Source: a virus. Taken from it: a DNA stretch of 64,000 bases. Location: positions 29,562-93,561 of IMG/VR virus record IMGVR_UViG_3300019776_000165; one strand, given 5' to 3'. The notes beneath the pieces are model-generated. The model was given only the letters and a program-made list of their open reading frames with translations. It was not told the DNA's origin and ran no database searches. The position numbers and the translations under genes were made by a program. This document shows positions 2,857 through 5,199 of the stretch, in pieces (position 1 is the stretch's first letter; each line of letters starts with the position of its first letter).

Positions 2857-2929
2857 TGACCTATGGCGCAATTGGCAGCGCAAGGAACTGTTAATTCCGA
2901 GGTTCTTGGTTCGAGTCCAAGTAGGTCAG
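2857..2929 (+). tRNA. tRNA-Asn (GTT)
   Basis: Acceptor TGACCTA/TAGGTCA, anticodon arm GGAA-CTGTTAA-TTCC, T-loop GGTTCGAGTCC. Confidence 0.93.
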
Positions 2930-2945
2930 CAAACAGAATCTCGAC

Positions 2946-3113
2946 GGAGAGTCTGGAGCATGGCTGAACGAAGCCCCTTGTCTAGATGGGGTGAGAAAGG
3001 CACACGGTTGGGATTAGCGTCCCCGCTCTTAGCGGAGCACGGCTGTGGTAGGACTAAGGCGGTACTATAATGTGGTATCTAGACTTCTCCTTGGTGGTAA
3101 TAGACAACCCACC
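2946..3113 (+). ncRNA. Unassigned structured RNA B
   Basis: 12-bp closing helix 2946-2957/3078-3090; twin hairpins with identical TTAGCG loops; loop TTGTCTA complementary to loop TAGACAA. Confidence 0.68.
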
Positions 3114-3124
3114 TGCTCACCTTT

Positions 3125-3196
3125 GCCTCTATAGTTAAACGGCTATAACCACGCTCTTGTAAAGCGTAATTGAGGGTTCGATTCCTTCTAGGGGCT
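3125..3196 (+). tRNA. tRNA-Thr (TGT)
   Basis: Acceptor GCCTCTA/TAGGGGC, anticodon arm ACGCT-CTTGTAA-AGCGT, T-loop GGTTCGATTCC. Confidence 0.92.
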
Positions 3197-3212
3197 CGGA
3201 AAGGAGCACAAC

Positions 3213-5125: not shown

Positions 5126-5199
5126 TGGCTCCCCGCCAAGGATTCGAACCTCGATAACCAGGACCAAAACCTGGGGTCTTGCCGTTAGACGAACGGGGA
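5126..5199 (-). tRNA. tRNA-Gln (TTG) with encoded CCA
   Basis: Reverse complement TCCCCGT...CCAGG-TTTTGGT-CCTGG...GGTTCGAATCC...GCGGGGAGCCA; own TGaTAGGCT promoter 5210-5218. Confidence 0.93.

What the first reader, a model, noticed from the sequence alone, without database searches (positions are those of the whole stretch)
2946..3113. RNA B: 7-bp kissing loops and twin UUAGCG hairpins
Seen: closing helix GGAGA-GTCTGGA (2946-2957)/TCTAGAC-T-TCTCC (3078-3090). Hairpin GCCCC/GGGGT carries loop TTGTCTAGAT (2978-2987). Hairpin GGTGG/CCACC carries TAGACAA (3101-3107), the exact complement of TTGTCTA. A junction CACGGTT/GGCTGTG holds GGGA-TTAGCG-TCCC and GCTC-TTAGCG-GAGC, with different stems but identical loops. 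The loop GTCTAGA could alternatively pair with TCTAGAC at 3078. Inference: an intramolecular pseudoknot, or hand-in-hand multimerisation as in phi29 pRNA. The duplicated loops suggest a dimeric protein-binding site or decoy.
Basis: partly seen in the sequence, partly recalled or inferred. Interest (0 to 1): 0.8.

Follow-up and report, generated by a model that had tools for sequence, protein, structure and literature searches.

The report
manA-type phage RNA between two tRNAs
The flagged stretch is a real folded RNA, but it is a variant of the known phage 'manA' RNA, which a 2026 preprint reports to join with copies of itself through loop-to-loop pairing; this variant sits between tRNA genes and has rewired loops.

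Summary
Window 2930-3124 (+) is a divergent member of the Rfam manA family (RF01745: 61.5 bits, cut-off 55.2, full-length match). It lies exactly between tRNA-Asn and tRNA-Thr in a 94-kb myovirus.

I collected 54 distinct relatives from viral and metagenome contigs. They form a subtype with a three-way junction carrying two UUAGCG hexaloops, instead of the canonical four-way junction. Of 63 loci with enough flank, 51 have a same-strand tRNA ending at the RNA's 5' end. Canonical cyanophage manA shows this in 1 of 114.

Its "closing helix" is not supported.

The 7-nt loop-loop match (2978-2984 with 3101-3107) is real and kept in this clade. Family-wide it is a weaker 3-5 bp contact, and it overlaps the first pairing.

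A 2026 cryo-EM preprint shows that manA RNAs form RNA-only rings and cages through intermolecular kissing loops. Multimerisation is therefore plausible here but untested.

The scan met this same twin-TTAGCG variant before on another genome. It is a new variant of a known kind, and its function is unknown.

The parts
2857..2930 (+). tRNA-Asn (GUU). Its 3' end defines the 5' end of the RNA.
   Evidence: ARAGORN; Rfam tRNA 61.7 bits.
2930..3124 (+). manA-type RNA of the twin-UUAGCG, tRNA-array subtype. These are the predicted mature ends, left by tRNA 3' processing upstream and RNase P downstream.
   Evidence: Rfam RF01745 at 2937-3123: 61.5 bits, cut-off 55.2, model 1-192. Own model R1 at 2928-3123: 192.6 bits. 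The ends are inferred from the tRNA abutment.
2935..2954 (+). 5' hairpin (P1 in the preprint's numbering): 8 pairs with a GACG loop, preceded by the conserved leader CAAAC (2930-2934).
   Evidence: All 8 pairs show changes on both sides (helix 1). The same GACG hairpin occurs in canonical manA.
2956..2960 (+). 5' strand of the true closing helix (P2). It pairs with 3114-3118.
   Evidence: 100% paired, 4 of 5 pairs compensatory (helix 2).
2973..2992 (+). Hairpin P3b with the 10-nt loop L3 (2978-2987). L3 is a two-part bridge: 2980-2987 pairs with 3077-3084, and 2978-2984 is complementary to 3101-3107.
   Evidence: Stem: helix 4. Loop pairings.
3003..3047 (+). Three-way junction. Helix P4 is 3003-3009/3041-3047. 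It holds two hairpins, 3010-3023 and 3025-3038, each with a UUAGCG loop (3014-3019 and 3029-3034).
   Evidence: Stems covary (helices 6-8). The loops are invariant in members found without requiring them. Rfam's third hairpin is deleted in the alignment.
3050..3091 (+). P8 domain. Outer helix 3050-3053/3088-3091; inner hairpin 3062-3065/3075-3078; strand 3077-3084 pairs with L3.
   Evidence: Outer helix: 91% paired, 3 of 4 pairs compensatory (helix 9). Pseudoknot partner.
3093..3113 (+). Terminal hairpin P9 (GGUGG/CCACC) with the 11-nt loop L9 (3098-3108), which contains TAGACAA (3101-3107).
   Evidence: Invariant stem (helix 10). Loop complementarity to L3.
3114..3118 (+). 3' strand of the closing helix P2.
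   Evidence: helix 2.
3125..3197 (+). tRNA-Thr (UGU). Its 5' end (the RNase P site) defines the 3' end of the RNA.
   Evidence: ARAGORN; Rfam tRNA 59.9 bits.

Best explanation
The element is a roughly 195-nt non-coding RNA of the manA family (Rfam RF01745), in a previously undescribed subtype.

Shown here:
- It keeps the family core: a 5' GACG hairpin, the closing helix, the CUGAA-type internal loop around hairpin P3, the P8 domain and the GGUGG-UAA...CCACC terminal hairpin.
- The canonical four-way junction is replaced by a three-way junction with two UUAGCG hexaloops.
- The P3 loop is enlarged to 10 nt. Its 3' part pairs with the strand just after the inner P8 hairpin. Its 5' part is complementary to the terminal loop.

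Inferred:
- It is co-transcribed with the phage tRNA array and cut out as a free RNA by the tRNA-processing enzymes: tRNA 3' maturation upstream and RNase P downstream. It does not act as a leader switch.
- By analogy with solved family members, at least one of the covarying loop pairings joins neighbouring copies, so the RNA builds a ring or cage of its own copies.

Its role in infection is unknown.
For: Family:
- The Rfam match is above the cut-off and full length.
- 8 of 14 relatives tested also pass the cut-off.

Structure:
- 52 pairs, 88% paired, 40 pairs with changes on both sides, 0 of 500 shuffles as good.
- Pseudoknot L3/3077-3084: 86.7% paired, covariation 0.508 against 0.191 shuffled, and at most 0.12 when slid.
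- L3/terminal loop: 77.6% paired, with a weak excess over controls.
- In divergent members the two contacts are adjacent and do not overlap: UGGUU/AACCA with GUAGA/UCUAC in L321, and GGCU/AGCC with GACAGU/ACUGUC in L325.

Free-standing RNA:
- 51 of 63 loci have a same-strand tRNA, of nine different amino-acid identities, ending at the RNA's 5' end.
- 21 of 63 have a tRNA starting 0-1 nt after the 3' end.
- Canonical manA shows 1 of 114 upstream and 5 of 114 downstream.
- There is no room for an expression platform, and no terminator lies between 2665 and 3197.

Self-assembly:
- The preprint 10.64898/2026.07.01.735769 shows intermolecular L5-L7', L3-L8' and L8-L9' kissing loops in manA pentamers.
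- Canonical relatives in my set covary at L8/L9 (CUGU/ACAG against AUGU/ACAU). Covariation in this family can therefore reflect contacts between copies.
Against:
- The subtype lacks the L5-L7' kiss, the one interface common to all four-way-junction manA RNAs in the preprint. Its ability to assemble therefore cannot be assumed.
- The preprint is in vitro, not peer reviewed, and used no UUAGCG-type construct.
- Sequence cannot tell pairing within a molecule from pairing between molecules.
- About a fifth of loci have no tRNA next to the RNA.
- The L3/terminal-loop pairing is absent or only about 3 bp in L264, L355 and L267/L347.
- At the haplotype level its outer pairs do no better than chance (my count).
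Confidence: 0.6

Rival explanations
1. A monomeric, doubly pseudoknotted RNA. Both L3 pairings form within one molecule and make a compact fold. The exposed twin UUAGCG loops bind a protein (perhaps a dimer) or a small ligand. The RNA acts in trans after excision from the tRNA transcript.
For: In divergent members the two pairings are adjacent and could coexist in one 10-14 nt loop. The invariant hexaloops on covarying stems look like a recognition surface. The common L5-L7' assembly interface is missing.
Against: No partner is known. Neighbouring genes shared among relatives give no RNA-binding candidate. All five manA RNAs examined in the preprint formed oligomers.
Confidence: 0.25
2. A conformational switch. 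In the window's clade the terminal loop (pairs with L3 positions 1-7) and the P8 strand (positions 3-10) compete for the same five bases, so the RNA alternates between two states. One example would be a closed monomer and an assembly-competent form.
For: The overlap 2980-2984 is shown directly by the sequence. Both partners are conserved in the clade. The predicted duplex energies are -9.0 and -6.0 kcal/mol.
Against: The overlap is not conserved. Other clades have adjacent, non-overlapping contacts or lack the terminal-loop contact. The outer terminal-loop pairs show no more pairing than chance at the haplotype level.
Confidence: 0.1
3. A cis-acting riboswitch or leader that controls downstream genes. 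This is the original 2010 proposal for manA.
For: Rfam files manA as Cis-reg. Weinberg et al. 2010 (PMC2864571) found most copies upstream of genes. The fold is complex.
Against: Here a tRNA starts 1 nt after the RNA. The upstream tRNA abuts it in 81% of relatives. There is no terminator or sequestered ribosome site. No ligand has been reported since 2010.
Confidence: 0.04

Closest known systems
manA RNA motif (Rfam RF01745; Weinberg et al. 2010, PMC2864571), canonical T4-like cyanophage type
   Same: Full-length match to the covariance model above the cut-off. Shared features are the 5' GACG hairpin, the closing helix, the CUGAA-type internal loop, the P8 domain, the terminal GGU-AA...CC hairpin and the 3' tail.
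   Different: - A three-way junction with two UUAGCG loops replaces the four-way junction with GUGGUG, GNRA-type and ACCA loops.
- The P3 loop is 10 nt and pseudoknotted, against 4-6 nt in the canonical type.
- It is embedded between tRNAs (81% against about 1%).
- It is found in myovirus-like contigs of roughly 30-135 kb, not in T4-like cyanophages.
manA RNA-only assemblies (Ren et al. 2026 preprint, 10.64898/2026.07.01.735769)
   Same: Same family. The loops used there for contacts between copies (L3, L8, L9) lie in the same region that carries the covarying complementarities here.
   Different: The interfaces seen there are L5-L7', L3-L8', L8-L9' and L6-P6'. Here L5-L7' cannot form. L3 is complementary to the strand 3' of P8b and to L9, a combination the preprint does not report. 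No UUAGCG-type RNA was studied, and assembly of this subtype is untested.
ROOL and GOLLD RNAs (Kretsch et al. 2025, PMC12286853)
   Same: Phage-borne structured RNAs that often lie near tRNA islands. They have no known function and form RNA-only cages through kissing loops that were first read as tertiary covariation.
   Different: They are unrelated in sequence and fold and much larger (about 600-800 nt). No Rfam match to either occurs in the window.
phi29 prohead RNA (pRNA)
   Different: There is no Rfam pRNA match. The phage has a tail sheath, a baseplate and a large terminase, so it is not phi29-like. The fold and the genomic site also differ.

Membership tests
manA RNA (RF01745) | Score at or above Rfam's gathering threshold over the whole model | tested here: met
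   61.5 bits against 55.2, model positions 1-192, E = 3e-13. Confirmed on the whole genome record.
manA RNA (RF01745) | Conserved core helices (P1 hairpin, P2 closing helix, P3, P4, P8, P9) supported by covariation | tested here: met
   88% of cells paired, 40 of 52 pairs with changes on both sides, 0 of 500 shuffles as good.
manA RNA (RF01745) | Four-way junction P4-P5-P6-P7 with GUGGUG (L5) and ACCA (L7) loops, present in most members according to the preprint's Fig. S13 legend | tested here: not met
   The Rfam alignment deletes about 20 model positions there. Two hairpins with UUAGCG loops stand in their place. The preprint notes that at least one accepted member (6FAB) also lacks the four-way junction.
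manA RNA (RF01745) | Position in the 5' untranslated region of a protein gene (the basis of the Cis-reg label) | tested here: not met
   It lies between tRNA-Asn and tRNA-Thr with gaps of 0-1 nt. The same holds in most relatives.
manA RNA-only oligomers (2026 preprint) | Forms discrete homo-oligomers through intermolecular kissing loops | not testable with these tools
   Only complementarity and covariation can be shown. No tool here folds RNA complexes.
phi29 pRNA (RF00044) | Match to the family model, and a phi29-like podovirus packaging context | tested here: not met
   No match even at E <= 1. Myovirus structural genes are present.
Riboswitch (generic) | An aptamer followed by an expression platform (terminator or ribosome-site sequestering helix) before a regulated gene | tested here: not met
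   tRNA-Thr starts 1 nt after the RNA. There is no terminator-like site between 2665 and 3197.

The most novel reading that the evidence does not exclude
In this subtype the ring-forming interface of manA RNAs has been rewired. A 10-nt L3 'bridge' pairs at once with the terminal loop and with the P8 strand of neighbouring copies, and the twin UUAGCG loops replace the L5-L7' kiss with a new kind of contact. tRNA-processing enzymes release the unit, so that phage tRNA arrays produce self-assembling RNA rings or cages during infection. The overlapping complementarities in the window's clade would gate assembly.
Probability: 0.2. Interest if true: 0.7.

Novelty: new variant of a known kind. Interest (0 to 1): 0.38.

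Why it matters
manA has been listed since 2010 as a possible riboswitch, and no ligand has been found. This subtype is wedged between tRNA genes with no room for a regulatory platform, which argues that manA-type RNAs are free-standing products.

It also offers natural sequence variants for testing which loop contacts build the RNA-only rings and cages reported in 2026. The 8-bp L3/P8 pairing covaries strongly, and the junction lacks the common L5-L7' interface, so the subtype should show how such assemblies evolve.

The gain is incremental. The family, its presence near tRNAs and its self-assembly are already described, and the scan has met this variant before on another genome.

Tried and rejected
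no better than shuffles.
- **Single-sequence folding:** it gave a different and non-significant structure (z = -0.74).
- **Close relatives by Hsp20 (L001-L005):** they have tRNAs but no manA within 2.5 kb.
- **BLAST of the RNA against GenBank phages and PLSDB plasmids:** only the tRNAs matched, or nothing did.
- **Two pattern scans of 185,579 prokaryote species genomes:** 0 and 35 hits. The 35 is about the number expected by chance, and my model rejected all of them. No prophage copies were found.
- **Recurrent neighbouring proteins:** ribonucleotide reductase small chain, M23 peptidase, a PA14-domain protein, DUF7455 and unnamed families. This is shared synteny of related phages and gives no RNA partner.
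- **Terminators after canonical manA:** 17 of 102 against 6 of 116 in the control, so this does not decide the question.
- **Weinberg 2010 'pseudoknot?':** the stored Stockholm file is cut before the structure lines, so I could not read which pairs it names. From the preprint it is most likely the L5/L7 GUGGU/ACCA pairing.
- **Partners for the UUAGCG loops:** I looked by eye for a conserved partner (CUAA in the P8 loops, GCU in the CUGAA region) and none is conserved across clades.
- **phi29 pRNA, ROOL and GOLLD membership:** no model matches.

Full report
**Identity**

Rfam places a full-length manA RNA (RF01745) at window 2937-3123 on the + strand. It scores 61.5 bits against a gathering score of 55.2, and a search of the whole 93.5-kb virus record confirmed it.

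The RNA fills the gap between tRNA-Asn(GUU) at 2857-2930 and tRNA-Thr(UGU) at 3125-3197. It lies downstream of an Hsp20-like ORF (2125-2664).

The phage has a large terminase, portal, major head protein, tail sheath and baseplate. Its terminase is about 50% identical to that of Streptomyces phage BRock. It is therefore a myovirus of unknown host and not a T4-like cyanophage.

**Relatives**

A loose pattern scan of IMG/VR returned mostly canonical cyanophage manA RNAs.

A pattern built on the window's 5' and 3' motifs did not require the hexaloops. Every true hit it returned carried two UUAGCG hairpin loops.

Further scans of viral and metagenome contigs, followed by a covariance model built from the first alignment, gave 67 matches. 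Of these, 54 are distinct, scoring 104-205 bits.

Rfam's own model passes its cut-off in 8 of 14 relatives tested.

None was found in GenBank phages or plasmids, or in 185,579 species genomes.

**Structure**

Its loop is called L3 or the P2 loop elsewhere in this report.

On the 25-sequence alignment the following helices are 88% paired. Forty of 52 pairs show changes on both sides, and no shuffle of 500 did as well.

| Element (preprint numbering) | Window coordinates |
|---|---|
| 5' hairpin P1, GACG loop | 2935-2954 |
| Closing helix P2 | 2956-2960 / 3114-3118 |
| Two-pair step P3a | 2963-2964 / 3000-3001 |
| Hairpin P3b, loop L3 = 2978-2987 | 2973-2992 |
| Junction helix P4 | 3003-3009 / 3041-3047 |
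| UUAGCG hairpin 1 | 3010-3023 |
| UUAGCG hairpin 2 | 3025-3038 |
| P8 outer helix | 3050-3053 / 3088-3091 |
| Invariant terminal hairpin P9 | 3093-3113 |

**The two long-range pairings**

*L3 with the P8 strand.* L3 positions 3-10 (2980-2987) pair with 3077-3084, the strand just 3' of the inner P8 hairpin.
- 86.7% of cells are paired.
- The covariation score is 0.508 against 0.191 shuffled, and at most 0.12 when slid.
- Partner sequences change together across clades: GUCUAGAU/AUCUAGAC, GCCAGCAA/UUGCUGGC, GGGAGCAA/UUGUUCCC, GUUUAGGU/ACCUAAAC and GUUAGCG/CGCUAAC.

- It is exact here and kept in the window's clade.
- Family-wide only UUG/CAA is constant.
- Pair 4 reads U-A 31, U-G 9, C-G 3 and G-C 2.
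- Pairs 6 and 7 fail in 20 of 53 sequences.
- The excess over controls is small.

Divergent members lend the terminal-loop contact some support. L321 has UGGUU/AACCA next to GUAGA/UCUAC, and L325 has GGCU/AGCC next to GACAGU/ACUGUC. In both, the two contacts sit side by side without overlap.

I read L3 as a two-part bridge whose 5' part contacts the terminal loop and whose 3' part contacts the P8 strand. In the window's clade the two complementarities overlap at 2980-2984, so they cannot both form in full. The predicted duplex energies are -9.0 and -6.0 kcal/mol.

**Context**

Of 63 loci with enough flank, 51 have a same-strand tRNA ending exactly where the RNA begins. These tRNAs are Gly, Trp, Thr, Glu, Asp, Asn, Met, Val or Ser.

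A tRNA starts 0-1 nt after the RNA's 3' end in 21 loci, and within 100 nt in 38. Among 114 canonical cyanophage manA loci the figures are 1 upstream and 5 downstream.

No terminator or promoter match lies between the hsp20 stop codon and tRNA-Thr.

From this I infer that the RNA is cut from a tRNA-array transcript by tRNA 3' processing and RNase P. It would then be a free product rather than a leader switch. I could not get read data to test this.

**What is known**

- Weinberg et al. 2010 described manA as a riboswitch candidate with a doubtful pseudoknot.
- A 2024 paper notes that the motif is sometimes adjacent to tRNAs.
- Earlier notes of this scan led me to a 2026 preprint, which I then read.

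The preprint reports that manA RNAs under 200 nt form RNA-only pentamer-based decamers, octamers and a 60-mer cage in vitro. The contacts are intermolecular:
- L5-L7' in all four-way-junction types.
- L3-L8' in Photobacterium types, or L8-L9' in cyanophage types.
- A GNRA-helix contact.

My canonical set shows matching L8/L9 covariation (CUGU/ACAG against AUGU/ACAU). Covariation in this family can therefore report contacts between copies.

The window's subtype cannot make L5-L7'. It uses L3 with the P8 3' strand and with L9, a combination the preprint does not report, and no UUAGCG-type RNA was studied there.

**Verdict**

- The subtype is a new variant: twin UUAGCG loops, a bridging L3 loop and tRNA embedding.
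- The scan met the same variant before on another genome.
- The function remains unknown.

Noticed in passing
No Rfam family matches it even at E <= 1.
   Followed up: partly
L244:12312-12480, L177:10963-11132, L278:5165-5331, L272:1484-1653: A third conserved element of about 170 nt fills the gap after tRNA-Asp in several related phages. It is not similar to manA or to RNA A, and no Rfam family matches it. These tRNA arrays carry several unnamed structured RNAs.
   Followed up: partly
L261:5900-6158 and L157:6175-6257: tmRNA or tmRNA-like genes lie in or near the same phage RNA gene clusters (ARAGORN; Rfam). L261's sits within a tRNA array; L157's lies about 190 nt downstream of the manA-type RNA with only one weak tRNA nearby.
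   Followed up: no
L264:11865-12057 (-): In this divergent member the L3 loop itself contains UUAGCG, and its P8-strand partner reads CGCUAAC. That strand is therefore complementary to all three UUAGCG loops of the molecule.
   Followed up: no
L025-L144 (canonical manA loci): The inner P8 loop and the terminal loop change together (CUGU with ACAG, AUGU with ACAU). This matches the intermolecular L8-L9' kiss in the 2026 preprint. The P3 loops there are only 4-6 nt and show no comparable pairing.
   Followed up: partly
L145 and about 35 further near-identical contigs (group G1): A very uniform, widely sampled branch of the subtype, with many contigs from one large metagenome. It scores below Rfam's cut-off for manA. 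It has spacing 7 between the UUAGCG loops and the pairings AUUGC/GCAAU and GCAUGU/ACAUGC. It sits after tRNA-Ser.
   Followed up: partly
window 5126-5199 (-): A tRNA-Gln (UUG) lies on the opposite strand, away from the + strand tRNA and RNA cluster.
   Followed up: no
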